Source: an uncultured Candidatus Saccharibacteria bacterium (lineage in GTDB: Bacteria; Patescibacteriota; Minisyncoccia; 2-02-FULL-40-12; GWA2-44-9). From it: a DNA stretch of 57,038 nucleotides. The stretch spans positions 1 to 57,038 of the forward strand of contig CAZAUE010000003.1 of the NCBI GenBank assembly GCA_964488565.1, read 5' to 3'. The first letter of the stretch is position 1, and every line of letters begins with the position of its first letter. Below are positions 9,397 to 41,536 of this stretch, piece after piece. A program made the position numbers and the translations under genes. The notes below the pieces were generated by a model. That model saw only the letters and a program-made list of their open reading frames with translations. It was not told where the DNA came from and ran no database searches.

Positions 9397-9420
9397 TCCC
9401 CGCTAAAGTGCGGGGATTTT
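9395..9420 (+). terminator. Intrinsic terminator
   Basis: aatccccgc/gcggggatt stem with T tail. Confidence 0.7.
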
Positions 9421-9526
9421 TACCCCCACACTCATTCATGAGTGTGGGGGTTTATTTTTGACAGTGCTGGAACTTAGTTTTATAGTAATCCCAAGAACTT
9501 TTAAAATTGCATAATAAGAAGGGAAT

Positions 9527-10240: not shown

Positions 10241-11424
10241 GTCTTCATTTCCTTGAGCCAGATTTTTTATATCTTCTGATCCCTTTAGCTACTTTATTTA
10301 TCTTTTGGATCGGTGTTACAGCGATTAAGATTTCGAAAAGACCCAATCGCACTTATGGTTCAAAATATCCGCTTATCGGAAAAATAAAATTATGGGGATT
10401 GTTTGTCATACCAGCTGGAGTTTTGATGGTTTTGGCCTTAGCCAAGCCGAGTTTCGATCAGAGCTCTTTCAGGGCATCACAGGGTGATGTAGAAGTAATT
10501 CTGGTTGTTGATCGGTCAATATCCATGCGGGCTGATGATATAAAACCGTCTCGTTTGGAGATAGCCAAACGGGAAGCTGTTAATGTGGAATCTCTTTTGA
10601 GAGAAGATGACAAGGCGGCTTTATTTATCTTCGGAAAAGAATCTCACAGAAAAATTTATCTTTCTGGAAGGTTTGAAACTACGTTTGATAGACTGGCCAG
10701 AATCTCATTCCCCGAGAGTTTAGCGGGGGACGGTCTTATTTGGGATTCTGATTTTGCCACCATGTTGGAAAACATTTATCAATCCATGGATAGACAAGAC
10801 GCAAACAGTGAAGGATATTCGGGGAAAAATTATGTCCCCAAAAAAAGATCAAATAGAATTGTTATAATTTTCAGTGATGGGGAAGATCAGTTAAAGAAAG
10901 AAAAACCAGTTTCGCCGGAAGAAATTCAGAGTCATAAGAATTATCTTAAAAGACTCAACGGAGCTTTAGCGGAATTTAAAAAGAGGGGCCTTAAGATTTA
11001 TCCCGTAGGAATTGGTACTCAAAAAGGTGTTGGGTGGACATCTTTGCTGAGGGATTACGACGCTGGTAAATATGTTCAGGGTGAAGGTTCTATGTATTAT
11101 GACGCGGGTGATTATAGCGAGGATTTATTGAAAGAATGGAAAGATAAAATTACCCGTCTTGATAAAGAAAACCTTATGTTTCTATCCAGACAATCTGGAA
11201 CTGAGCAAGGAAATAAAATCTGGTCAGTTGAAAATAGCGCAACGACAGTTAAGGATTATCTTCAGTTTGCCATTGATTCAAACAGAAGAACGTTGCTTGA
11301 ATTTAGTCAGGGTGAGGGCGATCAGGATTTGTGGCAGTACTTTCTCCTTTCTGCTGTCGGTATTTTAGGACTTGGAATTTTGTTCTATCCTGTTTCGGGA
11401 TATTTCAAAAAAAATAAAACTTAG
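10237..11424 (+). CDS. Membrane vWA protein (MxaL/BatB-like)
   Basis: LALAKPS, MIDAS VDRSISM, ADDIKPSRLEIAK, IFSDGED, YPVGIGT, C-terminal TM. Confidence 0.8.
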   Translation: MSLHFLEPDFLYLLIPLATLFIFWIGVTAIKISKRPNRTYGSKYPLIGKIKLWGLFVIPAGVLMVLALAKPSFDQSSFRASQGDVEVILVVDRSISMRADDIKPSRLEIAKREAVNVESLLREDDKAALFIFGKESHRKIYLSGRFETTFDRLARISFPESLAGDGLIWDSDFATMLENIYQSMDRQDANSEGYSGKNYVPKKRSNRIVIIFSDGEDQLKKEKPVSPEEIQSHKNYLKRLNGALAEFKKRGLKIYPVGIGTQKGVGWTSLLRDYDAGKYVQGEGSMYYDAGDYSEDLLKEWKDKITRLDKENLMFLSRQSGTEQGNKIWSVENSATTVKDYLQFAIDSNRRTLLEFSQGEGDQDLWQYFLLSAVGILGLGILFYPVSGYFKKNKT

Positions 11425-16903: not shown

Positions 16904-17036
16904 GGGTGTGGTTATCCACACATCTTTTGAGTGAAAAAATGCTATGGTGTAAATAGCTAAAAAACTATTTTGGTGTCTAACGTATTAGCCTTTATTTAAG
17001 CGCTAGCTCTTACACCAAGTGGTCTCAAAATTGAAT

Positions 17037-18029
17037 ATGAAAACTTTTAAAAAGTTTTCGGGAGTTATGGTGGTTTTTTTCTTAATGCTTGGTCTGGTCG
17101 GACCATACTCTGCGATTGCGGCAACAACCCCATCCTTAGGGGCAGCAGCAAGCTACGGCGTTCTCGGCAGTACGTATACCAACACGGTAGCAGGAACCAC
17201 TGTTAATGGAGATGTTGGATTCACTACGGGGCCAGCAGTCGCTCCTTTAGGAGTCCACACTAATTATGGATCAGGTGCCCCGTATTCTACAGCAGGCATA
17301 GATCAAAATAGTGCCTTGTCTGCTTTGAATTCTCAGGTTTGTACATTTACCTTTGCGCCAGGAGCAATTGATTTGGCTACTGACACAACTCATGGCCCAA
17401 TTGGAGTTTATGCACCAGGGGTTTATTGCGTATCAGGAGCCGCTTCTATCGGGGCAGCTGGAATTTCTCTTAGTGGTACAGGAACATATATTTTCAGAAT
17501 CAATGGTGCATTTACCACAGTAGCTAATTCCTCGGTTACATTGCCTGGTGGCGCATCATCTTGCGATGTTTTTTGGACACCGACTTCTGCCACTACACTT
17601 GGAGCTAATTCCACAATGAGAGGAACAATAATTGATGCCTCAGGAATTACTATTGGAAGTACAGCATTATTAACAGGACGAGCTTTGGCTTTTGGTGGAA
17701 CAGTCACAACTGATGCTGACACAATTACAGTTCCTTCATGTGTGGCTCCTACCCCAACTCCTACACCTACACCTACACTTACACCAACTCCTACTCCTAC
17801 ACCAACCCCAGCACCTACGCTTTCTCCTACTCCAACACCAACTTCAACACCAATCGCAACTCTTACCCCAACTCCTTTCCCAACATTACCACGTGCAGGA
17901 ATCGCTCCCGATAATGGAACCTCATGGAATCTTGTTGCCATGGTTGGAATTTTTGCCACCCTAGCTTCGCTTTATTTTGCTCGAAGAAAGCAAGCGACCG
18001 AAGGGGAGCGCAGTGCCCAGCGCCAGTAG
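17037..18029 (+). CDS. DUF3494 ice-binding-like protein, PT-repeat stalk, sortase signal LPRAG
   Basis: Signal peptide; LGAAASYGVLG, YAPGVYC, YIFRINGA, CDVFWTP, GRALA; (PT)n linker; LPRAG + TM + RRK. Confidence 0.82.
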   Translation: MKTFKKFSGVMVVFFLMLGLVGPYSAIAATTPSLGAAASYGVLGSTYTNTVAGTTVNGDVGFTTGPAVAPLGVHTNYGSGAPYSTAGIDQNSALSALNSQVCTFTFAPGAIDLATDTTHGPIGVYAPGVYCVSGAASIGAAGISLSGTGTYIFRINGAFTTVANSSVTLPGGASSCDVFWTPTSATTLGANSTMRGTIIDASGITIGSTALLTGRALAFGGTVTTDADTITVPSCVAPTPTPTPTPTLTPTPTPTPTPAPTLSPTPTPTSTPIATLTPTPFPTLPRAGIAPDNGTSWNLVAMVGIFATLASLYFARRKQATEGERSAQRQ

Positions 18030-18071
18030 GTGGCGGGTGCAAATAATTTAACTAACTAAAAATTATTTAAC

Positions 18072-19883
18072 ATGAAAATGAATAACAAAAATTCAATAAC
18101 TATAATAACCATAACCGTGTTGATTCTGTCCTTAATGCTTGGTCTGGTCGGACCAAATTCTGCGCAGGCGGCAACGGCGCCAGTTTTGGGAACCGCTTCT
18201 GGTTATTCAGTTTTTGGTAATGCCGGCATAACGGAAACCGTTGCACAGACCTCTCATCTTTGGGGAAATGCTGGCGGTAATGGTTTTGGTCACGCCAGTC
18301 TTATTGCTTCTCAGGTTGATGGGACAATAGATGCTGGGGCCAATGCTTCGGTTGTGAGTGCAATATCCTTTGCATATGGAGATCTGGCTGATGAGGCACA
18401 AACAGGAGCAATTGATTTGGCCACATCACCTACGGTCACACCGGGCGTATATGATGTTGCCGCGACGGCATTTAGTTCCACCCTTACTCTTAATGGTGCG
18501 GGTGTCTACATTTTCCGAAGTACATCAAGCATTGCTCAAACAGCTGGAGGTACGATGCTTTTGACTAATGGTGCAACGGCCTGTAATGTTTTTTGGCAGA
18601 TTCCTACATCTATGACATTTGCTGCTGCTGGAAATATTGCGGGAACGATTATTACAAACACAGGACTCATTTCATTTGTATCAGGATTGAATTTGCAGGG
18701 TCGAGCTTGGGCAGCTACTCAAGTAACGATGAGTAATAACCAGATTACTGAACCGACATGTGTTACAGCTACTTCCACCCCGGCACCTTCACGAGCAGTA
18801 GCAACAATTAATGTTGTAAAAAATGTTATTAATGATAATGGCAGAACAAAGATTGCTGCTGATTTTCCATTATTCGTTAACGGAACACCAGTTATCTCTG
18901 GAATGACATATACCTTTCCTGCGCCTGCTAGTGTGTATTCAGTGACCGAAACAGGTGATTCAAATTACACTCGTGTATTTTCTGGTGATTGTGACACAAA
19001 CGGTCAATTCAATCTAAACCCAGGTGATAACAAATTTTGTATTGTCACAAACAACGACATAGGTGCACCCATAGTTCCTCCAGTACCACCGCTTATTGAT
19101 GTATTGAAAGTTCCAAGCCCGTTAGCTTTACCAGCTGGTCCCGGTCCGGTTACATATACTTATACGCTCAAAAATGTTGGAACAGTTCCTGTAACTGATA
19201 TAACCATGGTTGGTGATACATGTAGCCCAATAGTCCGCGTTTCTGGTGACTCAAACGGAGATAATAAGCTTGATATAACTGAGACTTGGATACACACATG
19301 TTCCACAACACTAACAGAAACTCATACCAACATTGTTACCGCTACTGGATGGGCCAACGGTATTTCTGCGGTTGATATCGCCTCTGCCACAGTTATTGTT
19401 GGATCACCGGTAGTTCCACCATTGATACATTTAATAAAAAGACCAAGCGTGTTTACTCTTCCGGCGGGCGGAGGGGCGGTTACCTATACATATATAGTAA
19501 GTAATCCAGGCACAGCGCCTTTGAGCAATGTAAAAATTAGTAGTGACAAATGCACTGGAGTTCCAAGCCGTGTTTTGGGACATCCTGGAGACATTAACAA
19601 AAACAGTTTACTTGAGAGTGGCGAAGAGTGGTTGTTTACTTGTTTAACAAACATTACACAAACAACAACAAATACAGGCACAGCTAGTGGCGATGCTAAT
19701 GGTTTTACAGCTCGAGATTTAGCGGTTGCTACGGTTGTTGTGGCCGCCACTATTCCAAAGTTGCCGAGTACTGGAATTGCCCCGGATGAATTAAGTGTTC
19801 TTTGGAATATTACCATACCAACAGGAGTCTTTATTGCACTACTTTCATTCTATTTTGTTCGAAGAAAACAAGAGGACTACTAA
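18072..19883 (+). CDS. DUF3494 ice-binding-like protein with Ig-like/DUF11-type repeats and LPSTG signal
   Basis: VTPGVYDV, GVYIFRS, ACNVFWQI, LQGRAWA; two VTYTY..N.G..P repeats; LPSTG + TM + RRK. Confidence 0.8.
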   Translation: MKMNNKNSITIITITVLILSLMLGLVGPNSAQAATAPVLGTASGYSVFGNAGITETVAQTSHLWGNAGGNGFGHASLIASQVDGTIDAGANASVVSAISFAYGDLADEAQTGAIDLATSPTVTPGVYDVAATAFSSTLTLNGAGVYIFRSTSSIAQTAGGTMLLTNGATACNVFWQIPTSMTFAAAGNIAGTIITNTGLISFVSGLNLQGRAWAATQVTMSNNQITEPTCVTATSTPAPSRAVATINVVKNVINDNGRTKIAADFPLFVNGTPVISGMTYTFPAPASVYSVTETGDSNYTRVFSGDCDTNGQFNLNPGDNKFCIVTNNDIGAPIVPPVPPLIDVLKVPSPLALPAGPGPVTYTYTLKNVGTVPVTDITMVGDTCSPIVRVSGDSNGDNKLDITETWIHTCSTTLTETHTNIVTATGWANGISAVDIASATVIVGSPVVPPLIHLIKRPSVFTLPAGGGAVTYTYIVSNPGTAPLSNVKISSDKCTGVPSRVLGHPGDINKNSLLESGEEWLFTCLTNITQTTTNTGTASGDANGFTARDLAVATVVVAATIPKLPSTGIAPDELSVLWNITIPTGVFIALLSFYFVRRKQEDY

Positions 19884-19904
19884 GTATTGATAAAAGTTGA
19901 AAAC

Positions 19905-19935
19905 CAAGAGTCCCGCCACGGTGGCGGGACTCTTG
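19905..19935. repeat. Near-perfect 31-bp palindrome between adhesin and sortase genes
   Basis: caagagtcccgccac-g-gtggcgggactcttg. Confidence 0.8.
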
Positions 19936-19959
19936 TGGCGATAATTTTTTGAAAAGTTT

Positions 19960-20559
19960 ATGAAATTAAAAACATTATCAACGAGAACATTGGTGATTGG
20001 AATTATTGCTGCTTCAATGTTTTTGTTGGCACTATTTTTTGATATTTTTCAGAAAAATAGTTCGGCGAGACTTATTGAAAATTTTGACAAAAACTTCACA
20101 CAAGAGCAACTGGGTCGTGGACTGCCAATGCGTCTTAAAATTCCAAAAATTAATGTTGATTCCGATGTTGAAAGTGTGGGCCTTGCCCCCGATAGTTCAA
20201 TTGGTGTTCCAAGAGAGCGAGAGAATGTCGCTTGGTTTAATACTGGATCACGCCCAGGTGATAATGGTAGTGCTATTATTGTCGGACATTATGGAATAAA
20301 TAATAAAAAAACTTCGGCATTTGATAATCTGCACAGATTGCGCAAGGGGGATAAATTATATGTGGAAGATGACAAAGGGGTAGTTACAACTTTTGTTGTT
20401 CGTGAAAACAGAAGATACGACCCCGATGCAGACTCTTCAAGTGTGTTTGGTCCAAATGACGGAAAGTCACACCTCAATCTTGTCACTTGCGAGGGAACTT
20501 GGGATGAAGAGAACCAGCAGTATACTAAGCGATTAGTAGTGTTTACTGACAAAGAATAA
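19960..20559 (+). CDS. Class F sortase
   Basis: N-terminal TM; PMRLKIPKINVD, RPGDNGSAIIVGH, LNLVTC, KRLVVF (His/Cys/Arg triad). Confidence 0.9.
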   Translation: MKLKTLSTRTLVIGIIAASMFLLALFFDIFQKNSSARLIENFDKNFTQEQLGRGLPMRLKIPKINVDSDVESVGLAPDSSIGVPRERENVAWFNTGSRPGDNGSAIIVGHYGINNKKTSAFDNLHRLRKGDKLYVEDDKGVVTTFVVRENRRYDPDADSSSVFGPNDGKSHLNLVTCEGTWDEENQQYTKRLVVFTDKE

Positions 20560-20621
20560 TAATACTCTTTGAATAAAAGTTAGATTTCGGCTATACTAAT
20601 TTAAATTTAGAATTATCACAC

Positions 20622-20710
20622 GGAGGAGTCGGATAGTGGTTTATTCCACCGCCTTGGAAAGGCGGCATCCCGCAAGGGATACGTGAGTTCGAATCTCACC
20701 TCCTCCGCCA
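20622..20710 (+). tRNA. tRNA-Ser(GGA)
   Basis: Acceptor ggaggag/ctcctcc-GCCA; anticodon arm ccgcc-ttGGAaa-ggcgg; long variable arm atccc-gcaa-gggat; T arm gtgag-ttcgaat-ctcac. Confidence 0.96.
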
Positions 20711-21190: not shown

Positions 21191-22270
21191 ATGAATTACA
21201 TAAAATACATTTTAATTTCCTTGCTATTTATGCCAGTTTTGGTTTTTGCAGAAACTCAATCGGTTTTACCAAGTGCCGGTCTTACCCCAGAAAGCTCTTT
21301 TTATTTTTTCGATAGATTCGGAGAAACCCTTCAGAGGTTTTTTACATTTAACCCAGAAGGCAAAGCAAGACTTGAAATATCTTTTGCTAAAGAAAGGATT
21401 GCGGAAATCAAACTCATTCTTGAGGATAAAGGTGTTACTGCCAAAGGGTTAGATGTTGCAGAGGCTAAATTGCAAGACAATCTTTCAAGAGCAACAGCTA
21501 TCTTAATAAAAGAGAAACAGGATGGAAACGAAATTGGTGAAATTGCCAAAGAGCTTTCAGATGAAATTAATCCTGCCCAAGAAGAGCTTAAAGACGCTTT
21601 CAAATCTGAAAGAGACGCCCTGAAGGCAAAAGAGGAAGAATTAAAAGCAAAACTAAAAGAAGCTCGCCGAGTTGGAGATACGGCACAAATCACAATCTTA
21701 ACAAAAGAGCTTGCAGATATTAGGGCCGAAAGAGAACTTCTTGATCAGAGTGATGAGGATAATGATGAGGCAATTGACCAAGAGGATGAAAAGATTGACG
21801 AGGCCATGGAATTAAAAGAAGAGGCTGAAAAGAAAATTAGAGAAGCGGAAAAAGATAAGGCAGAATTACTTAAAGAAGCAGAAGATAAAAACGTTGTTTT
21901 TCCTGCCACAACATTTAATACGTTCGATGGGCTAATTTCTCAAGCCAAAACTGCTTTTGCGGCAGGTAAATATGAGGAAGCTAAGCGCTTGGCCAAAGAG
22001 GCTAAGGGTAATCTTAAAGAAGTGGAGAAGAGTTTAGAAAAACTCAAAGATGTTAAAGAAAAGAATGAAGAATTGAAACAAGGATCAGATGAACAACAAA
22101 ATGAGTTGAGAAATAATCTTAAAGAAGCAGATAAAGAAAACGCAGAAAGAATACTAGAAGAAATTAAAAAGAATGAGGAAAATTTAAAAGAAGAGCAAGA
22201 AAAGATTTTGGAAGAACAGAAAAAGATTGAAGAAGAACTCAAGAGTTCAGGAGAACAGGAAAACGACTAA
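21191..22270 (+). CDS. DUF5667 domain secreted coiled-coil protein
   Basis: Signal peptide; AGLTPESSFYFFDRFGE...AKERIAE motif; long E/K-rich coiled coil. Confidence 0.8.
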   Translation: MNYIKYILISLLFMPVLVFAETQSVLPSAGLTPESSFYFFDRFGETLQRFFTFNPEGKARLEISFAKERIAEIKLILEDKGVTAKGLDVAEAKLQDNLSRATAILIKEKQDGNEIGEIAKELSDEINPAQEELKDAFKSERDALKAKEEELKAKLKEARRVGDTAQITILTKELADIRAERELLDQSDEDNDEAIDQEDEKIDEAMELKEEAEKKIREAEKDKAELLKEAEDKNVVFPATTFNTFDGLISQAKTAFAAGKYEEAKRLAKEAKGNLKEVEKSLEKLKDVKEKNEELKQGSDEQQNELRNNLKEADKENAERILEEIKKNEENLKEEQEKILEEQKKIEEELKSSGEQEND

Positions 22271-23105: not shown

Positions 23106-23251
23106 GACTTGTGACCATGGCCAAGTCTTTGCCAAGTATATTTTCAGGGTTAGGTGACTCCGTTATGGCGGGGTCTTTTTTTTGCTTGCAAAAGAGGGGA
23201 GGGTTGCTATACTTCGGGCAGATTTCTGCTCTTTGTCAATTAGGACAAGAA

Positions 23252-26200
23252 ATGGCCAAGAAATTGGTTCTTTTGGTTTTGATTATTCTGTTGATGCCGT
23301 TTACTGCTTATGCTCAGTTTGGTAAGAATCAGGTAATTTGGGAAAAGACGACGTGGAATTTTTATCAGTCTGCCCATTTTGATTTCTACTTTTCACTTGA
23401 GATTAAAGACGAAGAAGTCCAAAAGCATTTTGCTAATTTGGTAGCGCACGTGGAAAACTCTAGTGAGTTTTTGAGCGTCAAACTCAATCACCAATTAAGG
23501 AAGCGACCAATCGTAGTTGTGTCACGTACACATAGTCAATTTGAAGCTCTCCACCTTGCTGGTGGCGAGTTTATGCCTGAAGGAGTAGGAGCTTACGCTT
23601 TTCCGCGTGGTTCTCGTCTTACGTCCGATTCAGACATGATTCTTGTTGTTAAGCCGGATTTTTTACCGGTCTTGAACCGCACGATCTTCACTCATGAATT
23701 GGTTCACATTTTTCAGTTTGATATGGTGAGCCGAGGTTTCCTTAGTCGGACTATTGGTGCTGATCCCATTGAACAGTGGTTATATGAAGCAACCGCCGAT
23801 TATTTGGCGAATAAATTTGCTCCATATTCACGTGACGACATTCGCAAGATGGAACAACGTTTGGCTGCGGCTAATGTCAAAAATCCCCAAATGGGATTGC
23901 CTACGTTGGAAATGTTGTCACAAGGCCAAGCCAATCCTTATTCGCTTGGAGCTATGGTGTTTATGTTTCTTGAATCAAAATATGGCGAGCAAGCGACTGC
24001 AGATTTGGTCATGGGTATCTTTAAGAGGCGTGGTCAAAAATTTGACGAACTTTTAGCAGATATTTCACAGGGAGAGTTTTATAATGCCGAGGCATTTGAT
24101 CGGGCGCATCGGAATTATTGGGCAGAAAAATATGCCAAGGATTCTTTGGATAGACCAAAGCCTTATCAGGAAACTTCCAGCATGAAGAGTCGTCAAATTA
24201 TCAAACAACCCTATCCTTATCCGCTGACATCAACCGAGATATCACCCGATGGAAATTTTGTAGCTTTTTTGACTTACAATCCCAAGAACGGGATTGTCTT
24301 GGCGGTATCACATATGCTACCGCAAGATGATTTACCATATGTTCCTTTGGCTAAGCGCAAAAAGTTCCGCGTGTTTGGTAACAAGGTTGCCATTCAGGGC
24401 AAGCCCATACAAGTCTTAACAACATTTATGCCTCCTAAGCATTACGAGTACATTATTGCTCAGGAGTTAAATGTTTGGCCATTCAACGGTTCAGATTTGG
24501 ACTGGTGGCAGGACAAAGAATGGGCGTCTAAGGTTGGAGATGCTGAATATATTCTTGAGATGGACAATAAAAATCTTGCCGAACTCAGGGCAATGGTCTC
24601 AAAGGACAGACCCAACGATTACAATGAAAGGATTGTGGCGATAGAAGAAGAAATTAAGTCTGTTGAAAAGGATATTAAACAACTTAAGCGCACTCCCGAT
24701 GTTAGTAAGATTGCTTTTTTTGCCCGCAACAATAAGGATCATGCCTTATTCGTCCTGGATGTTAATACGGGTAAATTTGTTCAAGAAATTGAAATTCCTC
24801 TTGATCAGGCATTTTCTCCCAATTTTAGTTCTGACGCTAAGTTGATTTATTTCTCCGCAGCCAAGAATATTCAAAGAGATATTTATTCAATGAATCTTGC
24901 AACCCGCGAGCTGAAGAATCTAACTAATGGTGGTGTGTTTAATAGTGCACCTCAAGTATCACCTGATGGAGCTAAGATTGCTTACGTAGCATTTGACGGT
25001 AGTTTTCAGAAGTTATTCATGTTGGATATGGTCACTGGCAATAAGGAACAGTTAACTTATGGCCGATGGAATGATAATTCGCCGAGCTGGTCATCTGACA
25101 ATTCAACTCTTGTATATACTTCTGATGAAAAGGATGGAATTTGGAATCTATACACACTTGATTTGTCAGCCCATGTCAGTAAGCAGTGGTCGGAGGTTTA
25201 TGGAGGTATTTTTACTCCTAAATTTGTTACCGACGAGAACTATGACAGGAATGATCGTGTTGTGTATTCAACCAACATGGAAGACGATCAGTTCAGAAGT
25301 TATATTTTTTCCAACTTTGAATTGTTTGATTCTCGCCTAAAAGAACCACTCAGAACTTTTGCGATTGAAAATAAAAACGAGAATATGGAATTAGCCTTCC
25401 GAAGTCAGGGGGCAGTTGAAGAGCAACTTGAACAGAGTCAGTTAAGTAATCCTCAAGAACCGCCGGCTCGTTGGAAACTCTATGGATCCGATGTAACCAT
25501 TGGCTCAAGTTCATATTGGGGAATATTTGCTAGTTCACAATTTATGCTTCAGGACATGTTGGCTAATCGAACTTATTCTGGTATTTATGCTCAACAGGGC
25601 GGATTCAATTATATGGACTTTTCATACTTGAATCGGTCTCGTCGTTGGGGTTGGGCGGCAAACGTTAACAGGGCTCAATACCCACTGTATTACATGTTGC
25701 GAGATTTTAAGGGTCAATATCCTCGTTATGAGAACCCTAATGGAGAACATGACCAATTTACTCTTAACAATACTTGGGTAAAAGAATTAAGCTCTTCGCT
25801 TTATGTGGAATACCCATTTAACAAGTGGAATCGTCTTGAATTGGGAATTAGACCACACAAGCGTTCATACTTCCTGCCCCTTACAGATGAAAGTCTTGAG
25901 CTTTTTGGAGATTCAATTCCAGAGATTGATCGACAGATGTACAGGTTCTTTAAAGATTCAAATGGTCAGGCAAATGTTGGTTTCACCGCGGCATTCGTGC
26001 GTGATACGATTCTTTATTCCAATGATACGCTTGGACCAATGCATGGCAATGCTCTTCGTGGTCAGGTGGAATATGGACCAGGCCTTAACAAAAATTCAGC
26101 AGCATATTTTACAGCGCAGTTTGATGCGCGTAAGTATATAAGACTATCAAACAGTTCCTTGTTTGCCGTTCGTGCTACAGGACTTAATAGTAATAGGCCT

Positions 26201-26581
26201 AACGGAGAATTCATGTTGTTGGGTGGTAGTGACACGCTTCGCAACTATCCTTACTTCAGTATTGCTGGTAATCAGGTTGGTTATGGAAGCGCAGAATTAC
26301 GATTTCCCGTTGCTGATGTGTTTCTTCTCGGCTCTATCCCATTTCAGGTTAGAGGAACATTTTTTGGTGATTATGCGATAGCTAAATTTAGTAACCCACG
26401 AGCGCAGCGAGCGGAGCTATCGTCGTATGACGGCAACACTTCACTTCCTGCTCGCCGTGAATGGGCGTATGGTGTTGGACTGCAAGCCTATGTCTTTTTG
26501 CCACTGAACTTTGAGTGGGCAAAGACAAGGTTTTCACCGGACAAGTGGACCTTCAATGTCCGAATCGGATTTAGTTTTTAA
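23252..26581 (+). CDS. Zn-peptidase (MA-like) + PD40/TolB-like propeller + Omp85 (BamA/TamA)-type beta-barrel protein
   Basis: Signal ending AYA-QFGKN (ATG 23252); HELVH..E; repeats SPNFSSD, APQVSPDG, SPSWSSD; LGGSDTLRNY lid loop; ends FNVRIGFSF. Confidence 0.82.
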   Translation: MAKKLVLLVLIILLMPFTAYAQFGKNQVIWEKTTWNFYQSAHFDFYFSLEIKDEEVQKHFANLVAHVENSSEFLSVKLNHQLRKRPIVVVSRTHSQFEALHLAGGEFMPEGVGAYAFPRGSRLTSDSDMILVVKPDFLPVLNRTIFTHELVHIFQFDMVSRGFLSRTIGADPIEQWLYEATADYLANKFAPYSRDDIRKMEQRLAAANVKNPQMGLPTLEMLSQGQANPYSLGAMVFMFLESKYGEQATADLVMGIFKRRGQKFDELLADISQGEFYNAEAFDRAHRNYWAEKYAKDSLDRPKPYQETSSMKSRQIIKQPYPYPLTSTEISPDGNFVAFLTYNPKNGIVLAVSHMLPQDDLPYVPLAKRKKFRVFGNKVAIQGKPIQVLTTFMPPKHYEYIIAQELNVWPFNGSDLDWWQDKEWASKVGDAEYILEMDNKNLAELRAMVSKDRPNDYNERIVAIEEEIKSVEKDIKQLKRTPDVSKIAFFARNNKDHALFVLDVNTGKFVQEIEIPLDQAFSPNFSSDAKLIYFSAAKNIQRDIYSMNLATRELKNLTNGGVFNSAPQVSPDGAKIAYVAFDGSFQKLFMLDMVTGNKEQLTYGRWNDNSPSWSSDNSTLVYTSDEKDGIWNLYTLDLSAHVSKQWSEVYGGIFTPKFVTDENYDRNDRVVYSTNMEDDQFRSYIFSNFELFDSRLKEPLRTFAIENKNENMELAFRSQGAVEEQLEQSQLSNPQEPPARWKLYGSDVTIGSSSYWGIFASSQFMLQDMLANRTYSGIYAQQGGFNYMDFSYLNRSRRWGWAANVNRAQYPLYYMLRDFKGQYPRYENPNGEHDQFTLNNTWVKELSSSLYVEYPFNKWNRLELGIRPHKRSYFLPLTDESLELFGDSIPEIDRQMYRFFKDSNGQANVGFTAAFVRDTILYSNDTLGPMHGNALRGQVEYGPGLNKNSAAYFTAQFDARKYIRLSNSSLFAVRATGLNSNRPNGEFMLLGGSDTLRNYPYFSIAGNQVGYGSAELRFPVADVFLLGSIPFQVRGTFFGDYAIAKFSNPRAQRAELSSYDGNTSLPARREWAYGVGLQAYVFLPLNFEWAKTRFSPDKWTFNVRIGFSF

Positions 26582-26594: not shown

Positions 26595-26620
26595 GCCCCA
26601 CATTTTGTGGGGCTTTTTTG
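26595..26620 (+). terminator. Intrinsic terminator
   Basis: gccccaca/tgtggggc stem followed by T6. Confidence 0.75.
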
Positions 26621-26721: not shown

Positions 26722-27360
26722 ATGCACTTTTTATTGGCCGCTTTTCTTGCCTTGGAAATTGTGAGTTCTGGCATTTTTAGCCAGGATATTTCACCGCCTG
26801 ATGTGGAAAATTTCAATATAGTTTTGTCCAAAGAACTTGAGTTTCGTGTGGATGATTATAAGACCGCTTTTGTTGGTCGAGTGGTTGTTTATCAAAACCC
26901 AGACGACCCAAACGAATATACAAGGGTATATTATCGGCAGATAGCTATTATTTCTGAGCGAGCTCAAGAAAAAAGCATCTCAGAAACCGGTGTTTTGGAG
27001 AATAATTCTTCTAATCTGAATTACCATCTTAAACAAGAGGAAGAAGTTTTGGATAGAGTTCAGCAGGCAACCGATGCTTTTGCTTATGTTAAATGGCGAA
27101 CAGATCGCGACCCACGAACTGGGCAAGATTTCAGGGCAGGTCCTCTTCAGTCGTGGCTTTTGGAACAAAATGGAAATTGGGTCTTCAGTTCAGAATTGAG
27201 TATTTTTACGATGCCATTTTCCGAACGCTCAAAGGCAAATCCAGACAAGTTAATTATCGTTGGAATTCAGTTTACTTTGGCGGGTGGATCTCATGTTGTC
27301 CGCATTGATCAAGATGAACTGATTATTTACAAGAAAGGATCGGTCGATGACAAGAAGTAA
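26722..27360 (+). CDS. Secreted hypothetical protein
   Basis: Signal-like N-terminus; overlaps start of next gene by 14 nt; aggaa SD-like site. Confidence 0.65.
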   Translation: MHFLLAAFLALEIVSSGIFSQDISPPDVENFNIVLSKELEFRVDDYKTAFVGRVVVYQNPDDPNEYTRVYYRQIAIISERAQEKSISETGVLENNSSNLNYHLKQEEEVLDRVQQATDAFAYVKWRTDRDPRTGQDFRAGPLQSWLLEQNGNWVFSSELSIFTMPFSERSKANPDKLIIVGIQFTLAGGSHVVRIDQDELIIYKKGSVDDKK

Positions 27361-28621
27361 GGTGCTTGCGCCAATTATTCTATTATTGCTTGCAGTTGGC
27401 CTGACTGCGCAGGCAGGATGTGCCTCTAGTGGTAATAAAAAACCAACCATATTGGTGGATCAATACAATAATGTTCCAGCTGACATTCAGTCTCAGTTTT
27501 TGGATCGCTACAGGCGATTTATAACCGGCAAAGAACGTAAAGAATTTGAGAAACTTCTTACAGATGAAGAACGAGATGTGTTTATTGAAAACTTTTGGGC
27601 CAAACGAGATTCTGATCCCGCAACGCCCGAAAATGAATTTAAGAAAGAAGTTGATGATCGGATTGAGAATATTATTAATGAAAGCTTTTTTGGAACATTT
27701 GGTGCTGGGGGATTAATGTTCAGATCAAATGGTGGGTTCAATGGGGGCATGGCTCATGTTTATCTTCTTCATGGAGAACCCGATGTTGTGGATTTGATTG
27801 AAGGTGGTTCGTTTGTCCCTATGATGCTTTGGGTTTATATCAATCCCGAAAATGGTCGACTTCTTTATGCCTTTATGTTTTATCAAAAAGGTGGCTCAGG
27901 AGAATTTACTTTATTTTACCAAGATTCTTACAAAATGGATCAGTGTGGAGCGATTTATGAAGTCGCTACTGTGCGGAGTTACAACTACAATGGTGGAGGC
28001 GGGCAAAATTGCCCCAGCGATTTGTATGATGTCTATGGAGAAATCGCTAGGTCTACTGGTAAAAATGGTTTTTTGGACGGAAACATGTTTGCTTGGGCAT
28101 TGTTTAACTTTTCAAGTAACTCAGATTTGAAACTTGAAGTCGCCCTTGACCCCCCAAAGCCAGCTTCGGAGATTGCCGTCAAATCAAAGGCGCGCGTGGT
28201 TGGTGAGGCGCCAGAGCTTGTTGGCACCATCGGAACTGACTACATTATTAATTCTTGTGAGAGATGTAATTCATTAATTCCAGCCCAACTTATATTTGAT
28301 AAGGAATTGGCCTTATTAATCAGACGCAGTGATGTTGACTGGCGAGTTGTTAACGATGATGCCGGGTTGGAGTTAAAGGTAAGGGTGATGGTTGAAGACA
28401 ATAAGAATCAAATTCCTTCGTTGGTTTTTGAAAAAAATGTTTCTTTCACCGACAAGAAAGAATCGATCATGTTGGACCCTCTTGGTCAGAACACTGTTGT
28501 TCTCTTGACCGAGGATGAGGTGGCTAAAATTCCGGCCGGCAGTTATCGGGTCAGTGTTTATGTAAAAAACACAATGACTCAAAAGTATAATGCTTGGCTC
28601 AGAGAGATTGTTGTAAAATAG
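27347..28621 (+). CDS. GWxTD domain-containing exported (possibly lipo-) protein
   Basis: FITGKERKEFEKLLTDEERDVFIENFWAKRDSDPATPENEF...R; VYLLHGEPD; signal with AG-C. Confidence 0.75.
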   Translation: MTRSKVLAPIILLLLAVGLTAQAGCASSGNKKPTILVDQYNNVPADIQSQFLDRYRRFITGKERKEFEKLLTDEERDVFIENFWAKRDSDPATPENEFKKEVDDRIENIINESFFGTFGAGGLMFRSNGGFNGGMAHVYLLHGEPDVVDLIEGGSFVPMMLWVYINPENGRLLYAFMFYQKGGSGEFTLFYQDSYKMDQCGAIYEVATVRSYNYNGGGGQNCPSDLYDVYGEIARSTGKNGFLDGNMFAWALFNFSSNSDLKLEVALDPPKPASEIAVKSKARVVGEAPELVGTIGTDYIINSCERCNSLIPAQLIFDKELALLIRRSDVDWRVVNDDAGLELKVRVMVEDNKNQIPSLVFEKNVSFTDKKESIMLDPLGQNTVVLLTEDEVAKIPAGSYRVSVYVKNTMTQKYNAWLREIVVK

Positions 28622-37782: not shown

Positions 37783-37811
37783 AAAAAGCCACGCCAAGGC
37801 GGGGCTTTTTG
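37783..37811. terminator. Bidirectional terminator-like hairpin
   Basis: aaaaagccacgcc-aa-ggcggggcttttt. Confidence 0.7.
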
Positions 37812-37815
37812 AAAC

Positions 37816-37837
37816 TGCTCTGCGGCCAGGACTCGAA
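37816..37837 (-). repeat. Inverted copy of the tRNA-Asn 3' end
   Basis: Reverse complement ttcgagtcctggccgcagagca matches 38512-38533 at 21/22 nt. Confidence 0.9.
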
Positions 37838-37838
37838 T

Positions 37839-38246
37839 TTATAATTTTGCCCTGCCGTTCTCAACCTCTGTATGACAGTTTTTACACAATAAAATACATT
37901 TTTGAGCTTCCTTCATAACAGTTGCCCATGAATAACATAATCCCTTAACACTTAGCGCAAAGGATTTAGTTTTAGGGTTAATATGATGAAAATCAAGAGC
38001 GCCACTATATTTTTTATAACCACAAATAATACATTTACCGCCAAATATTTTTACCAATTTTTCCTTCTTGTTTCTGCGACTATCTATGACCCACTCGGAG
38101 GCACATTTACCACAACGATAAGTGTTATCGCCTCGTTTTAAGTGTTTTGTTTTTCCGTGTTTTGAACATTCAATTATCATTGTATTAAGTATAACACTTA
38201 GTGTTAAGACGTAAAACCTTATATCGATTAATTTGAAATCTTTCAT
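37839..38246 (-). CDS. HNH endonuclease with zinc-binding motifs (likely start ATG 38180)
   Basis: CSKHG..YRCGKC; GGKCIICGY; ALDFHH; CILLCKNCHTEVE. Confidence 0.82.
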   Translation of the reverse strand: MKDFKLIDIRFYVLTLSVILNTMIIECSKHGKTKHLKRGDNTYRCGKCASEWVIDSRRNKKEKLVKIFGGKCIICGYKKYSGALDFHHINPKTKSFALSVKGLCYSWATVMKEAQKCILLCKNCHTEVENGRAKL

Positions 38247-38280
38247 TTTTATGTTAATATAATCACGTTGTTTAATATAT

Positions 38281-38531
38281 TCCGCGGTAGCTCAATGGTA
38301 GAGCGGCTCCCTGTCAAATAAGGCAGCTTCACGCAGAAATGCGAGATGAAAAACTGGGCTAATTCGGGGAAACCTTTTAACTGGCAATCCCGAGCTAAAT
38401 TCACGCAAGTGATAAATGTGTAGAGACTATATACCCGGATCCCGTTAGGGATATGAGATAGTCCACCCCATTACGAAAGTTATGGATCATGTGTAAGGAG
38501 ATGGTTCCAGGTTCGAGTCCTGGCCGCGGAG
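38281..38531 (+). tRNA. tRNA-Asn(GTT) interrupted by a group I intron; exons 38281-38314 and 38494-38531
   Basis: Acceptor tccgcgg/ccgcgga + G73; D arm gctc-aatggta-gagc; joined loop CT-GT|T-AA; T arm ccagg-ttcgagt-cctgg. Confidence 0.9.
38315..38493 (+). ncRNA. Group I intron (179 nt, no ORF) between anticodon positions 35 and 36
   Basis: P1 ctgtc/ggcag with U-G pair at the splice site; aattcgggga and aatcccgagc core; P7 gacta/tagtc; P8 atccc/gggat; terminal G. Confidence 0.9.
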
Positions 38532-40162
38532 CACTTGTCATGATTTTGGTTTAAAACATCAGAATCGTGGCGAAGAATCAGTGTTTTTTGAAGTTCGAAA
38601 TTCTTTTTAACTTCGGGAGTCATTGATTCTATTGGTTGAACACTAAGAACGCCAGAAGCCCCATTAATACTGGGGTTTTTGGTTGGTTCGAAATTATTAT
38701 TGAGTTTTGGTGCCCAATCAGCTAAGAATTTGAAACCAGGAGTGTATTCGGCACTTACCTTACCTGCCAATAAATTAATGTTGGAGAAAACATAACTCAA
38801 CAACAACCTCTGTTCATCTTTTGTTATATGCTTGCATTTATATATATCCTTAACATGTAAAGCTAGCTCATGAATGGCCAGCCCAGCCTCATAGTAGGCC
38901 GTACGAGTCTCGCTAAGGCTCTCCAAGGCCTTTATGGCGGAGTTTTTTTCATCGGTGGCATCCTTTATCATTTTTTCACAAATTTCCAAGGGAAGCTCTT
39001 CTAGCAGTTTGCCTCGATATGCTCCTTCGATGATTTTATCAGAGGACTTAATGATTCTTTGGAGGTTTTCTTTCTGACGAGTATGCTCAGTAATCTCTTC
39101 TTTATGGCTGTCTTTTAACGCCTTGGTAAGTTTTTCAACTATTCTTGGATTTTTCATAACTACTGCATTGAAGAATGGTAAAAGTCGATTTTCAAATTCT
39201 GTCTCGAGTATAGTTCCAGCCTGAGAACAGTTTTTGTAGTGATTGCAATTTCCACGCCACTTACCCTTACTGAGATACCAGCTTATTACGCCTTTGCACT
39301 CCTCGCATCTAACCTTCCCTTTATACAGGGGAAGGTGTTTCTGATATTTACCGCCATGTTTGGCGTTTAATCTAGTCTGCACAGAGTCGAATAACTCTGG
39401 TGATATGATAGCTTCATGAGAACCATTTTGAGCCTTATCATTCCAAACCATTTTACCGCAGTAGAACGGGTCTGATAATAATTCATGGAGCCTGCTCTTT
39501 AATACTTTGCCACCCTTCTCATTTCGTAAACCTTTGTCGTATATTGCTTCAACGAGTCTCGATAACGAGTAGTTTCCTGAATTATATTTCTCAAAAGCTT
39601 CTCGCATCAGTCCGTCCATTGGCGGATTTACAACATGATGCTTGTGACCTTTTTCACCGATAGTTTTATAGCCAATTTTAGCCCTGCTTGGATAACCGCC
39701 CATTTTAAGTTTCTGTGCCTGACCCTTCTTAACCTCTTCTGAGAGGTTATTAATGTAAAATCTGGCTATTGCAACTTTCATATCCCAAACCAAATTTTCA
39801 TGGGCTTTAGTGTTCTGATTAAGAATAAAAGATTCTTTGATAAAGTGAACCTCACGCTTCAAATCGCCCTTAACCCACTCGTCAACAATACTGGCATCTT
39901 TGGGAGTTCTGGTCAGTCTGTCTATTTTCTCGCAGAGAATAACTGAAATCTTATGCTTAGCAGTATATTCCAGCATCTCGGTAAATATTTTTCTAATCTG
40001 CTTACCGCTTGCTGACTCAGCAATACGATACTCTTTTACAACATCGAATCCTTTTCGTTCGGCATATTCTTTAAGGAGAGAAAGCTGGGCATCTAAAGAA
40101 TAGCCAGTATCTTCCTGCTCTTTACTACTAACGCGGGCATAAATTACGCATTTAATTTTCAT
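38480..40162 (-). CDS. Large serine recombinase (resolvase + recombinase + zinc ribbon)
   Basis: IYARVSSKEQ catalytic Ser, EKIDRLTR, RCEECKG..CNHYKNC; frame runs through the tRNA 3' exon antisense. Confidence 0.9.
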   Translation of the reverse strand: MKIKCVIYARVSSKEQEDTGYSLDAQLSLLKEYAERKGFDVVKEYRIAESASGKQIRKIFTEMLEYTAKHKISVILCEKIDRLTRTPKDASIVDEWVKGDLKREVHFIKESFILNQNTKAHENLVWDMKVAIARFYINNLSEEVKKGQAQKLKMGGYPSRAKIGYKTIGEKGHKHHVVNPPMDGLMREAFEKYNSGNYSLSRLVEAIYDKGLRNEKGGKVLKSRLHELLSDPFYCGKMVWNDKAQNGSHEAIISPELFDSVQTRLNAKHGGKYQKHLPLYKGKVRCEECKGVISWYLSKGKWRGNCNHYKNCSQAGTILETEFENRLLPFFNAVVMKNPRIVEKLTKALKDSHKEEITEHTRQKENLQRIIKSSDKIIEGAYRGKLLEELPLEICEKMIKDATDEKNSAIKALESLSETRTAYYEAGLAIHELALHVKDIYKCKHITKDEQRLLLSYVFSNINLLAGKVSAEYTPGFKFLADWAPKLNNNFEPTKNPSINGASGVLSVQPIESMTPEVKKNFELQKTLILRHDSDVLNQNHDKCSAARTRTWNHLLTHDP

Positions 40163-40438
40163 TTCTAAGATAAAAGGGATAACTTGCTGGACATAACCTC
40201 TTGCGAGACTATAGGCAAATTATCCCATTTATCCCCACAAGATTATGTTATGTCCATCTAAATTATACCTCTTTTTAATTGATTAGTAAATTGTCCAGGT
40301 TGCCTAACTATTTATTTGCCAGACAAATAAATTTTCTAAACACAGAATTCTTTATTGGTTTTAAGGAAAAAAGAGAGAAAATTCTTTATTCTTTAATTTA
40401 TTTCCTTTTTCTTGTTTCTATTCATCTTATTTAATGTG

Positions 40439-40921: not shown

Positions 40922-41081
40922 TTTGTGTGTCTTTTTGTGTCCTATGGCTAACTTTTGCCAGTAAGTCGAAATAGCCTAACCAATCATAAGCAAATCTTGA
41001 AACTTCCTGGAAAGAAAAATCTTTGCCATAGTCCTCTTTAATTATTTGTCGTAGTTCACTCACAAACTCTTTTTCGACCAT
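40914..41081 (-). CDS. 55-aa small helical protein (not in ORF track)
   Basis: MVEKEFVSELRQIIKEDYGKDFSFQEVSRFAYDWLGYFDLLAKV...; stop overlaps the start of the HTH gene. Confidence 0.6.
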   Translation of the reverse strand: MVEKEFVSELRQIIKEDYGKDFSFQEVSRFAYDWLGYFDLLAKVSHRTQKDTQNG

Positions 41082-41516: not shown

Positions 41517-41536
41517 GTGGTGGGTTTTATGTTTTT

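What the first reader, a model, noticed from the sequence alone, without database searches (positions are those of the whole stretch)
23252..26581. Omp85-type outer-membrane beta-barrel protein in an apparently monoderm CPR genome
Seen: cleavable signal, HExxH..E peptidase domain, PD40 repeats, then an amphipathic beta-rich C-terminus with a GG...LRNY lid-loop motif and terminal FNVRIGFSF. Known: this is the Omp85 barrel signature with a C-terminal Phe beta-signal that needs BAM and an outer membrane, and CPR are generally described as lacking outer-membrane machinery. The frame is intact over 1109 aa and lies 2.7 kb from a sortase gene. Inference: either an unrecognised outer layer, a barrel delivered into the host outer membrane as a peptide-harvesting pore-protease, or a repurposed fold.
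Basis: partly seen in the sequence, partly recalled or inferred. Interest (0 to 1): 0.85.

Follow-up and report, generated by a model that had tools for sequence, protein, structure and literature searches.

The report
Omp85 barrel peptidase in CPR bacterium
A bacterium from the candidate phyla radiation, a group thought to have only one membrane, carries a well-conserved gene for an outer-membrane-type Omp85 beta-barrel fused to a zinc peptidase, probably acquired long ago from an Acidobacteria-like donor, so the barrel must sit in some lipid layer nobody has yet identified.

Summary
Window 23252-26581 (+) encodes a 1109-aa exported protein with four parts. These are a signal peptide, an HExxH...E zinc peptidase, a TolB-like beta-propeller and a C-terminal 16-strand Omp85 barrel. 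The barrel has an intact lid-lock (LRNY in loop 6, FGDYA on strand 13, Gly1074) and a C-terminal beta-signal. The AlphaFold2 model has pLDDT 86, and Foldseek matches BamA barrels (E~1e-10) and TolB.

The contig is not chimeric. In 11 independent CPR assemblies the gene lies beside the same two secreted partner genes and, where flanks are available, dnaG-rpoD. A sortase with LPxTG/LPxAG substrates lies 2.7 kb upstream.

The protein is not BamA. It belongs to the already described "WD40-Omp85" subfamily. Outside a narrow Yanofskybacteria-centred CPR clade, its relatives are almost all Acidobacteriota (23-28% identity). That suggests one old horizontal transfer, not an ancestral remnant.

Within CPR the barrel is as conserved as the enzyme domains. 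Its lipid-facing surface is as hydrophobic as in the diderm relatives.

The most likely function is a barrel-anchored, propeller-gated envelope peptidase. Which membrane holds the barrel is unresolved. I found no paper reporting Omp85 in CPR.

The parts
23186..23213 (+). Promoter-like site (TTGCAA-16-TATACT with TG). It follows a terminator-like hairpin at 23156-23175 that closes the upstream HAD gene.
   Evidence: This is a consensus match only and is weak evidence. It suggests the gene is its own transcription unit.
23252..26581 (+). Gene for the 1109-aa peptidase / beta-propeller / Omp85-barrel protein (stop codon included).
23252..23317 (+). Sec signal peptide, residues 1-22 (MAKKLVLLVLIILLMPFTAYA|Q).
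   Evidence: Read directly from the sequence. pLDDT is below 50 for residues 1-24. This N-terminus is conserved in homologues.
23339..24151 (+). MA-clan (gluzincin) zinc-peptidase domain, residues ~30-300. HELVH is at 148-152 (nt 23693-23707), E179 at nt 23786-23788, plus Y230.
   Evidence: The catalytic residues are invariant in 80/80 sequences. Diderm homologues hit PF13485 at 53-54 bits. The family profile hits an M1 aminopeptidase (3cia) at E 4.7e-4. Flagellinolysin HExxH gives a weak hit.
24164..25366 (+). TolB-like (PD40) beta-propeller, residues ~305-705.
   Evidence: The family profile hits TolB at E 4.6e-35. Foldseek matches TolB at E~1e-9.
24512..24688 (+). Two-helix hairpin inserted in the propeller, residues 421-479. 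It is found only in CPR sequences.
   Evidence: Helices 422-446 and 457-478 in the model. Column occupancy is 0 in 70 non-CPR sequences and 0.46 in CPR. A weak sub-threshold DUF5667 hit covers 429-486.
25367..25471 (+). Linker, residues 706-740. There is no POTRA domain.
   Evidence: Low pLDDT at 718-722, and no POTRA-like alpha/beta unit in the secondary structure. No POTRA hit in Pfam.
25472..26578 (+). 16-strand Omp85 barrel, residues 741-1109, with long loops L3, L4 (two helices), L6 and L7.
   Evidence: PF01103 in homologues P0032 and P0048.
26237..26248 (+). Loop-6 lid motif L996-R997-N998-Y999, corresponding to (V/I)RG(Y/F).
   Evidence: R is present in 8/10 CPR and 69/70 diderm sequences. 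Motif definition is from PMC4490367.
26363..26377 (+). Strand-13 lock motif F1038-G-D1040-Y-A1042, corresponding to (F/G)xDxG. The partner Gly1074 lies on strand 14.
   Evidence: F in 79/80, D in 10/10 CPR, G1074 in 80/80, and E1015/R1017/P1019 in 80/80. Motif definition.
26546..26578 (+). C-terminal beta-signal-like strand W-T-F-N-V-R-I-G-F-S-F, with alternating hydrophobic residues and a terminal Phe.
   Evidence: Terminal F/W in 10/10 CPR and 68/70 diderm sequences.
26595..26613 (+). Terminator-like hairpin plus T-run directly after the stop codon.
26722..27360 (+). p212, a small secreted protein of unknown fold. It lies next to the barrel gene in all 11 CPR loci.
   Evidence: No Pfam, NCBIfam or PDB match.
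27347..28621 (+). p424, a GWxTD-domain protein with a lipobox-like signal (…AQAG|C). It overlaps p212 by 14 nt (probable operon) and lies next to the barrel gene in all 11 CPR loci.
   Evidence: TIGR04514 scores 48.3 bits against a 28-bit cut-off. Synteny. AlphaFold2 pLDDT 80 with no significant PDB fold match.
17019..20559 (+). Context: two ice-binding-like surface proteins ending in LPRAG/LPSTG + hydrophobic segment + RRKQ, followed by a sortase gene. This is a Gram-positive-type wall-anchoring system.

Best explanation
Shown:
- The gene encodes an exported three-domain protein: an MA-type zinc peptidase, a TolB-like beta-propeller and a POTRA-less 16-strand Omp85 barrel.
- The barrel has a BamA/TamA-type lid-lock and a C-terminal beta-signal.
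- The protein belongs to the WD40-Omp85 subfamily.
- It is a real, conserved gene of a Yanofskybacteria-centred CPR clade. It sits beside two clade-specific secreted partners (p212 and a GWxTD lipoprotein) and, where flanks are available, dnaG-rpoD.

Inferred origin: one old horizontal transfer from an Acidobacteriota-like diderm, followed by vertical inheritance under purifying selection.

Inferred mechanism:
- After Sec export the barrel folds into a lipid bilayer of the CPR cell's own envelope.
- This happens without a canonical BAM complex, either by self-insertion or with help from p212 and the GWxTD lipoprotein.
- The barrel then anchors the peptidase and propeller in the wall space.
- The propeller limits access to the zinc site to peptides or unfolded chains. 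The enzyme trims or harvests peptides for a cell that cannot make its own amino acids.

The bilayer is either the outer face of the single cytoplasmic membrane or a sparse outer lipid layer not yet seen. I cannot tell which.
For: Fold and family:
- AlphaFold2 pLDDT 86, pTM 0.86.
- Foldseek matches BamA barrels and TolB.
- The family profile hits BamA, TamA, TolB and an M1 peptidase.
- PF01103 scores above cut-off in CPR homologues.
- Lid-lock residues and catalytic residues are conserved (motif definitions).
- The WD40-Omp85 subfamily is described in PMC4104836.

Genuinely a CPR gene:
- 67 CPR-type clusters, on contigs up to 265 kb.
- Conserved gene order in 11 CPR loci.
- Sortase system nearby.

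Origin:
- Of 316 relatives in the species-genome scan, about 10 of the best 80 are CPR. The rest are mostly Acidobacteriota at 23-28% identity.
- CPR sequences form one clade on a long stem.
- The two named nearest relatives of the partner's GWxTD domain are also Acidobacteriota.

Selection:
- Mean CPR-to-CPR identity is 0.46 for the barrel, 0.46 for the peptidase and 0.51 for the propeller.
- dN/dS against the closest relative is 0.09 overall. For the barrel pN/pS is 0.20.

Membrane embedding:
- Outward-facing positions of strands 7-16 are 64% hydrophobic and 10% charged in CPR. In diderm relatives they are 67% and 7%.

Self-insertion is plausible: BamA and SonA fold into liposomes unaided (PMC13018214).
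Against: - No localisation, expression or activity data exist.
- CPR are described as lacking an outer membrane (PMC10160955 and PMC12102498).
- I know of no beta-barrel integral to a bacterial cytoplasmic membrane (my own knowledge, not tested here).
- I could not scan whole Yanofskybacteria genomes for BamA-POTRA, Lpt, Lol or TamB genes.
- In/out assignment of barrel residues is by strand parity on an alignment, not from model coordinates.
- The transfer direction rests on taxon breadth and a midpoint-rooted neighbour-joining tree.
- The role of the partner proteins is a guess. Their folds gave no match.
Confidence: 0.45

Rival explanations
1. This CPR clade has a true, unrecognised outer membrane or outer lipid layer. 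The protein sits in it exactly as in Acidobacteriota, with the peptidase and propeller facing a periplasm-like space.
For: The barrel, lid-lock, beta-signal and hydrophobic belt are all kept as in diderm relatives. The conserved partner has a lipobox-like signal, and its GWxTD domain family has its nearest named relatives in a diderm phylum. Paceibacteria envelopes are hardly studied; in PMC10160955 the CPR entry is flagged as not based on cryo-ET because the group is uncultured.
Against: A sortase with LPxTG substrates sits 2.7 kb away, which is typical of exposed peptidoglycan. No other ORF with a beta-signal-like C-terminus that looks like a barrel protein was found in about 200 kb of CPR loci. 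No outer-membrane biogenesis gene was found in the 57-kb window. The literature says CPR lost the outer membrane.
Confidence: 0.2
2. The protein is delivered to a partner cell. The barrel inserts into the host's membrane, and the peptidase and propeller work at the contact site.
For: CPR bacteria live attached to hosts, and Yanofskybacteria attach to and deform Methanothrix. Omp85 barrels can fold into foreign or protein-free bilayers.
Against: No Omp85 protein is known to work this way. BamA/TamA-type barrels are closed by the L6 lid, which is conserved here, so a pore is unlikely. The documented hosts are sheathed archaea without an outer membrane. No secretion or targeting module is linked to the gene.
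Confidence: 0.12
3. The barrel keeps an Omp85 transport function. It acts as a minimal insertase or translocase, for example exporting or assembling p212, the GWxTD lipoprotein or other surface proteins. The peptidase would act as quality control, as BepA does with BAM (comparison from my own knowledge).
For: The lid-lock is insertase-type (FxDx, not GxDxG) and strictly conserved; E1015, R1017, P1019 and G1074 are present in 80/80 sequences. The two secreted partners are always adjacent.
Against: There is no POTRA domain to bind substrates. No other beta-barrel candidates were found nearby. The partner genes form a separate transcription unit and are absent from within 10 kb of the gene in the Acidobacteriota loci.
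Confidence: 0.12
4. The barrel is a repurposed, lipid-free scaffold in the wall or S-layer, or a decaying relic. Only the peptidase and propeller matter.
For: No outer membrane is known in CPR. The last Gly of the strand-13 motif is Ala in 9/10 CPR sequences, and R997 is lost in 2/10.
Against: The barrel is as conserved as the enzyme domains (0.46 against 0.46 and 0.51). pN/pS is 0.20. The outward-facing surface stays hydrophobic, 64% against 67% in diderm relatives. No truncated CPR versions lacking the barrel appear among full-length hits.
Confidence: 0.08
5. Artefact: a chimeric contig or a contaminating diderm gene binned into a CPR genome.
For: None beyond the surprise of the finding. Some public labels for these assemblies are plainly wrong.
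Against: The same gene order recurs in 11 independent assemblies from different studies. GC content is uniform at 0.39-0.41 across the region. CPR copies form their own deep clade.
Confidence: 0.02

Closest known systems
WD40-Omp85 subfamily of the Omp85/TpsB superfamily (Heinz & Lithgow 2014, PMC4104836)
   Same: An N-terminal TolB-like beta-propeller replaces the POTRA domains in front of a 16-strand Omp85 barrel. Full-length homology to diderm members (21-28% identity, E down to 1e-100), which hit PF01103 and PD40.
   Different: The host is a CPR bacterium with a sortase-type envelope. A subset of CPR members, including the window copy, carry a two-helix hairpin inside the propeller. The gene is always linked to p212 and a GWxTD lipoprotein. 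The 2014 paper does not mention the MA-type peptidase domain, which is present in all 80 sequences aligned here.
BamA / TamA (Omp85 insertases)
   Same: 16-strand barrel with L6 (V/I)RG(Y/F)-type and strand-13 FxDxG-type lid-lock, the strand-14 glycine, a helix-bearing L4 and a terminal aromatic residue.
   Different: No POTRA domains. No BamB-E or TamB partners were seen in the window or loci. About 14-16% identity to BamA in the structural alignments. Not an orthologue.
PlpD (patatin-like Omp85, type Vd secretion), as discussed in PMC4104836
   Same: An enzyme domain is fused N-terminally to an Omp85 barrel. This raises the possibility that the enzyme is displayed on the far side of the barrel's membrane.
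   Different: PlpD carries a lipase and a POTRA domain. Here there is a zinc peptidase, a 400-residue propeller and no POTRA. Translocation of the N-terminal part was not tested.
TolB (Tol-Pal system)
   Same: PD40 beta-propeller, best sequence and fold match for residues ~305-705.
   Different: Scores 93 bits against a 343-bit equivalog cut-off. No TolB N-terminal domain, and no Pal or TolQRA in the window. Not a TolB.
Propeller-gated peptidases (tricorn, DPP-IV, prolyl oligopeptidase), compared from my own knowledge
   Same: A beta-propeller sits next to a peptidase domain. Precomputed Pfam hits to Tricorn_N/Tricorn_2nd and DPPIV_N fall on the propeller.
   Different: The catalytic domain here is an HExxH zinc enzyme, not a serine peptidase. 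Gating by the propeller is inferred, not shown.

Membership tests
Omp85/TpsB superfamily | [quoted passage not shown] | tested here: met
   The AlphaFold2 model has 16 strands between residues 741 and 1109, mostly at pLDDT 80-95. Foldseek matches BamA barrels at E~1e-10, TM 0.56-0.61.
Omp85/TpsB superfamily | L6 tip motif (V/I)RG(Y/F) | tested here: met
   LRNY at 996-999. R is present in 8/10 CPR and 69/70 diderm relatives. Motif definition from PMC4490367. This is a variant form: L replaces V/I and N replaces G.
Omp85/TpsB superfamily | Strand-13 motif (F/G)xDxG with a bend glycine on strand 14 | tested here: met
   F1038-G-D1040-Y-A1042 and G1074. F in 79/80, D in 10/10 CPR, G1074 in 80/80. 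The final G is Ala in 9/10 CPR.
Omp85/TpsB superfamily | Significant match to Pfam PF01103 (Omp85) | tested here: inconclusive
   No hit on the window protein at E<=1. Hits above the 24-bit cut-off on its CPR homologues P0032 (41.6 bits) and P0048 (33 bits) and on diderm homologues. The family profile hits BamA and TamA chains.
Omp85/TpsB superfamily | One or more N-terminal POTRA domains | tested here: not met
   No POTRA in Pfam or in the model. Several recognised subfamilies also lack them (WD40-Omp85, noNterm, Metallo).
Omp85/TpsB superfamily | Located in an outer membrane | not testable with these tools
   Only indirect evidence: the outward-facing surface is as hydrophobic as in diderm relatives.
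WD40-Omp85 subfamily | TolB-like WD40/PD40 propeller N-terminal to the Omp85 barrel | tested here: met
   Subfamily description.
BamA (BAM core subunit) | Multiple (typically five) POTRA domains and orthology to BamA | tested here: not met
   No POTRA. About 14-16% identity to BamA in structural alignments. The nearest relatives are WD40-Omp85 proteins.
MA-clan gluzincin peptidase (Pfam Peptidase_MA_2, PF13485) | HExxH plus a downstream Glu as third zinc ligand | tested here: met
   H148, E149, H152 and E179, plus Y230, are invariant in 80/80.
MA-clan gluzincin peptidase (Pfam Peptidase_MA_2, PF13485) | Significant profile match | tested here: inconclusive
   The window protein gives only sub-threshold hits: BSP 14.7 bits and flagellinolysin 27 bits. 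Diderm homologues hit PF13485 at 53-54 bits against a 32.4-bit cut-off. The family profile hits an M1 aminopeptidase at E 4.7e-4. Activity was not tested.
TolB (Tol-Pal) | Full-length equivalog match including the N-terminal domain, and a Tol-Pal gene context | tested here: not met
   93 bits against a 343-bit cut-off, covering the propeller only. No tol or pal genes in the window.
GWxTD domain family (TIGR04514), for partner p424 | Match above the curated cut-off | tested here: met
   48.3 bits against a 28-bit cut-off, residues 51-164.

The most novel reading that the evidence does not exclude
A whole clade of CPR bacteria with a Gram-positive-type, sortase-bearing envelope maintains a functional, lipid-embedded Omp85 barrel. 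That would mean one of three things. These cells may have an outer lipid layer that genomics and microscopy have missed. An Omp85 barrel may work in a cytoplasmic membrane. Or the barrel may be planted in a host membrane. Any of these would be a first.
Probability: 0.35. Interest if true: 0.85.

Novelty: new variant of a known kind. Interest (0 to 1): 0.66.

Why it matters
Omp85 barrels are treated as a marker for a second membrane. CPR bacteria are placed among the lineages that lost theirs. Here a conserved Omp85 barrel under purifying selection, with a hydrophobic surface, sits in a CPR clade next to a sortase system. This shows the marker can be misleading, because a horizontally acquired, POTRA-less family member can persist without the rest of the machinery.

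It also poses a concrete, testable question about where a beta-barrel goes in such a cell. Related Yanofskybacteria are now in enrichment culture with Methanothrix. Cryo-ET, immunolocalisation and liposome-insertion tests are therefore feasible.

The likely foreign origin lowers its weight for arguments about the envelope of the bacterial ancestor.

Tried and rejected
- Pfam on the window protein gave no Omp85 hit. Homologues, a family profile and structure prediction were needed.
- The 58-sequence alignment was too diverse to seed the genome scan, so I repeated it with CPR sequences only.
- Partner proteins:
  - Pfam and NCBIfam found nothing for p212 and only GWxTD for p424.
  - PDB profile searches were empty for both.
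  - The p424 model (pLDDT 80) had no Foldseek match below E 1e-3, only generic Ig-like sandwiches.
  - An exhaustive profile search showed that full-length p424 relatives number only about 60 clusters. Everything else shares just the GWxTD domain.
- Iterative searches found no p212 or p424 relatives in the Acidobacteriota flanks. No neighbouring gene recurred across most Acidobacteriota loci (largest cluster 29 of about 70), and none gave a functional lead.
- A crude scan of about 200 kb of CPR loci for other proteins with a beta-signal-like C-terminus found only the target family and three non-barrel false positives.
- The rest of the window has no outer-membrane biogenesis genes.
- Literature searches pairing Omp85 or BamA with Patescibacteria, CPR or Parcubacteria found no report of this. 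'GWxTD' appears in no paper in the library.
- Supplements of the Yanofskyibacterium transcriptome paper had no TolB, PD40 or GWxTD entry. One file was truncated in storage, so this is not conclusive.
- I rejected the 1159-aa GTG start at 23102.

Full report
**1. What is in the sequence.**

The ORF at 23252-26581 (+) is intact and encodes 1109 aa. A longer reading from GTG 23102 is unlikely. It would run through a terminator-like hairpin (23156-23175) that closes the upstream HAD-hydrolase gene, and through a promoter-like site (23186-23213). The ATG has an AGGA upstream, and homologues align from it. A second terminator-like hairpin (26595-26613) follows the stop codon, so the gene looks monocistronic.

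The product starts with a classic signal peptide (…FTAYA|Q). Pfam finds only PD40 repeats above threshold and no Omp85 hit. NCBIfam finds a partial TolB propeller and a weak HExxH match.

**2. Fold.**

I predicted the structure with AlphaFold2 from a 58-sequence alignment. Mean pLDDT was 86 and pTM 0.86. The model shows:
- a helical peptidase domain (~30-300);
- a beta-propeller (~305-705) interrupted by a two-helix hairpin (422-478);
- a short linker with no POTRA domain;
- sixteen strands from 741 to 1109, with long loops where BamA has L3, L4 (with helices), L6 and L7.

Foldseek against the PDB returns BamA barrels (E 1e-10 to 1e-8, probability 1.0, TM 0.56-0.61 on barrel-only targets) and TolB (E~1e-9). 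A sequence profile of the family hits several chains:

| PDB match | E-value |
|---|---|
| TolB | 4.6e-35 |
| Fusobacterium BamA | 2.9e-13 |
| another BamA | 1.6e-6 |
| TamA | 3e-3 |
| M1 aminopeptidase | 4.7e-4 |

Two CPR homologues score above Pfam's cut-off for PF01103: P0032 (55% identical, 41.6 bits) and P0048 (40% identical, 33 bits).

**3. Signature residues.**

Maier et al. 2015 (PMC4490367) define the Omp85 lid-lock as three elements: (V/I)RG(Y/F) at the tip of L6, (F/G)xDxG on strand 13, and a glycine on strand 14. All three are present here:
- LRNY at 996-999;
- F1038-G-D1040-Y-A1042;
- G1074.

I aligned 10 CPR and 70 non-CPR family members. Conservation was as follows:

| Residue | CPR | Non-CPR |
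|---|---|---|
| R997 | 8/10 | 69/70 |
| F1038 | 10/10 | 69/70 |
| D1040 | 10/10 | 37/70 |
| G1074, E1015, R1017, P1019 | 10/10 | 70/70 |
| C-terminal F or W | 10/10 | 68/70 |

The Phe form of the strand-13 motif is the BamA/TamA type, not the FhaC type. The peptidase residues H148, E149, H152, E179 and Y230 are invariant in all 80 sequences.

**4. Whose gene is it.**

The window's rpoD is 98% identical and its groEL 90% identical to those of assemblies named Candidatus Yanofskybacteria. Named homologues of the target come from Yanofskybacteria, Taylorbacteria, Paceibacterota and 'Patescibacteria group'. There are 67 clusters, on contigs up to 265 kb.

Across the 11 CPR loci the common gene order is target, p212, p424, dnaG, rpoD. 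The two small genes are always adjacent to the target, though inverted in two loci. dnaG-rpoD follows in eight of the loci. GC content is even across the region. A chimeric contig is excluded.

Just upstream lie two ice-binding-like proteins ending in LPRAG and LPSTG plus a hydrophobic segment plus RRKQ, and then a sortase. This is a Gram-positive-type wall-anchoring system. No outer-membrane biogenesis gene occurs in the 57-kb window. No other plausible beta-barrel candidate (a protein ending in a beta-signal-like C-terminus) occurs in about 200 kb of CPR loci. I could not scan whole genomes.

**5. Where it came from.**

A scan of one genome per species found 316 relatives. Among the best 80, ten are CPR. 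Most of the rest are labelled Acidobacteriota (Thermoanaerobaculia, Vicinamibacterales, Aminicenantes), at 23-28% identity and 60-72% GC. These diderm proteins carry Peptidase_MA_2, PD40 and Omp85 domains.

This architecture, minus the peptidase, was described in 2014 as the 'WD40-Omp85' subfamily (PMC4104836).

In a neighbour-joining tree the CPR sequences form a single clade on a long stem, with deep internal branches. The simplest reading is one old transfer into the ancestor of this CPR clade, followed by vertical descent. The root is not established.

The partner p424 has a GWxTD domain. Full-length p424 relatives appear only in CPR. The only two named proteins among the ten nearest domain-level relatives are from Acidobacteriota. 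That is weakly consistent with the same donor lineage.

**6. Is the barrel still in use.**

Among CPR members, mean identity is 0.46 for the barrel, 0.46 for the peptidase and 0.51 for the propeller. Against the closest relative (82% identical), dN/dS is 0.09 overall. The barrel's synonymous sites are near saturation, so I give pN/pS = 0.20 as a conservative figure.

I assigned inward- and outward-facing positions by strand parity, checked against the lumen-facing F1038 and D1040. Outward positions of strands 7-16 are 64% hydrophobic and 10% charged in CPR, against 67% and 7% in diderm relatives. Inward positions are 33% and 30%, against 30% and 33%. The barrel is therefore maintained and still looks lipid-facing. 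This argues against a relic or a soluble scaffold.

**7. How it most likely works.**

Shown: an exported zinc peptidase and propeller joined to an Omp85 barrel, conserved together with two secreted partners.

Inferred: the barrel is a membrane anchor, and the propeller restricts the peptidase to peptides or unfolded chains. The enzyme serves peptide trimming or harvesting in the wall space of a cell with little biosynthetic capacity.

No BamA-type gene was found in the sequence I could examine. That does not rule out folding, because BamA and SonA insert into liposomes unaided (PMC13018214).

Which bilayer holds the barrel is open. It could be the outer face of the only membrane, an unseen outer lipid layer, or, less likely, a host membrane. 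The papers I read describe CPR as having lost or lacking the outer membrane (PMC10160955, PMC12102498). The only documented Yanofskybacteria hosts are sheathed methanogens.

**8. Novelty.**

Five literature searches found no paper linking Omp85 or BamA to CPR. The public records that carry a name call the CPR proteins 'hypothetical'; a few diderm homologues are labelled only 'Tol biopolymer transport system component'.

The family is known. What is new is its presence, conservation and gene context in a presumed single-membrane lineage, plus a helical hairpin found only in CPR copies. I rate it a new variant of a known kind, of real but not top-tier interest. The likely foreign origin removes most of its bearing on ancestral envelopes. 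The cell-biological puzzle stands and can be tested.

Noticed in passing
window 37800-47100: A low-GC stretch (0.32-0.37 against ~0.40) contains a serine recombinase (38480-40162, minus strand), a small HTH protein, several ORFs with no family match, and an 864-aa protein with weak, sub-threshold PHP, SMC_N and AAA_21 hits (44010-46604). It looks like an integrated mobile element or defence island.
   Followed up: partly
window 4978-11424: A cluster of MoxR-type AAA ATPase, DUF58, three ORFs without a family match and a VWA-domain protein. It resembles the Bat/MoxR-VWA operons of Bacteroidetes and spirochaetes (comparison from memory). Only the 3' end of this cluster and the two genes beyond it are shared with related CPR loci L003 and L011, whose flanks start there.
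   Followed up: no
window 17019-20710: Two ice-binding-like surface proteins, one with DUF7507, carry LPRAG/LPSTG sorting signals. A sortase gene and tRNA-Ser(GGA) at 20622-20710 follow.
   Followed up: partly
window 23252-26581 versus L081 3736-7092: Synonymous divergence from the closest relative is very uneven along the gene. pS is 0.40 in the peptidase domain, 0.54 in the propeller and 0.74 in the barrel. This hints at recombination or a mosaic history within the gene.
   Followed up: no
window 21191-22270 and 24512-24688: A highly charged coiled-coil protein with DUF5667 lies two genes upstream. The CPR-only helical hairpin inside the target's propeller gives a weak sub-threshold DUF5667 hit (17 bits), so the insertion may have come from that domain family.
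   Followed up: no
window 54280-55320: A 346-aa ORF with a C-terminal matrixin (Peptidase_M10) match. This is a second zinc peptidase in the window.
   Followed up: no
L010 710-1945 and L015 7615-8751: These are the two non-CPR relatives nearest to the CPR clade. Each has a ~380-410-aa gene directly upstream of, or overlapping, the Omp85 gene; the L010 one has TPR repeats. L015 also encodes flagellar FlhA. Their true phylum is uncertain.
   Followed up: partly
L002, L005, L035, L038, L046 (record titles): Several third-party-assembled genomes carry implausible names. L002 and L005 are labelled 'Saccharibacteria', yet L002's rpoD is 98% identical to Yanofskybacteria-type rpoD. L035, L038 and L046 are labelled 'Bifidobacteriaceae' but have 68-69% GC and cluster within the Acidobacteriota clade. 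Record titles in that series should not be trusted for taxonomy.
   Followed up: partly
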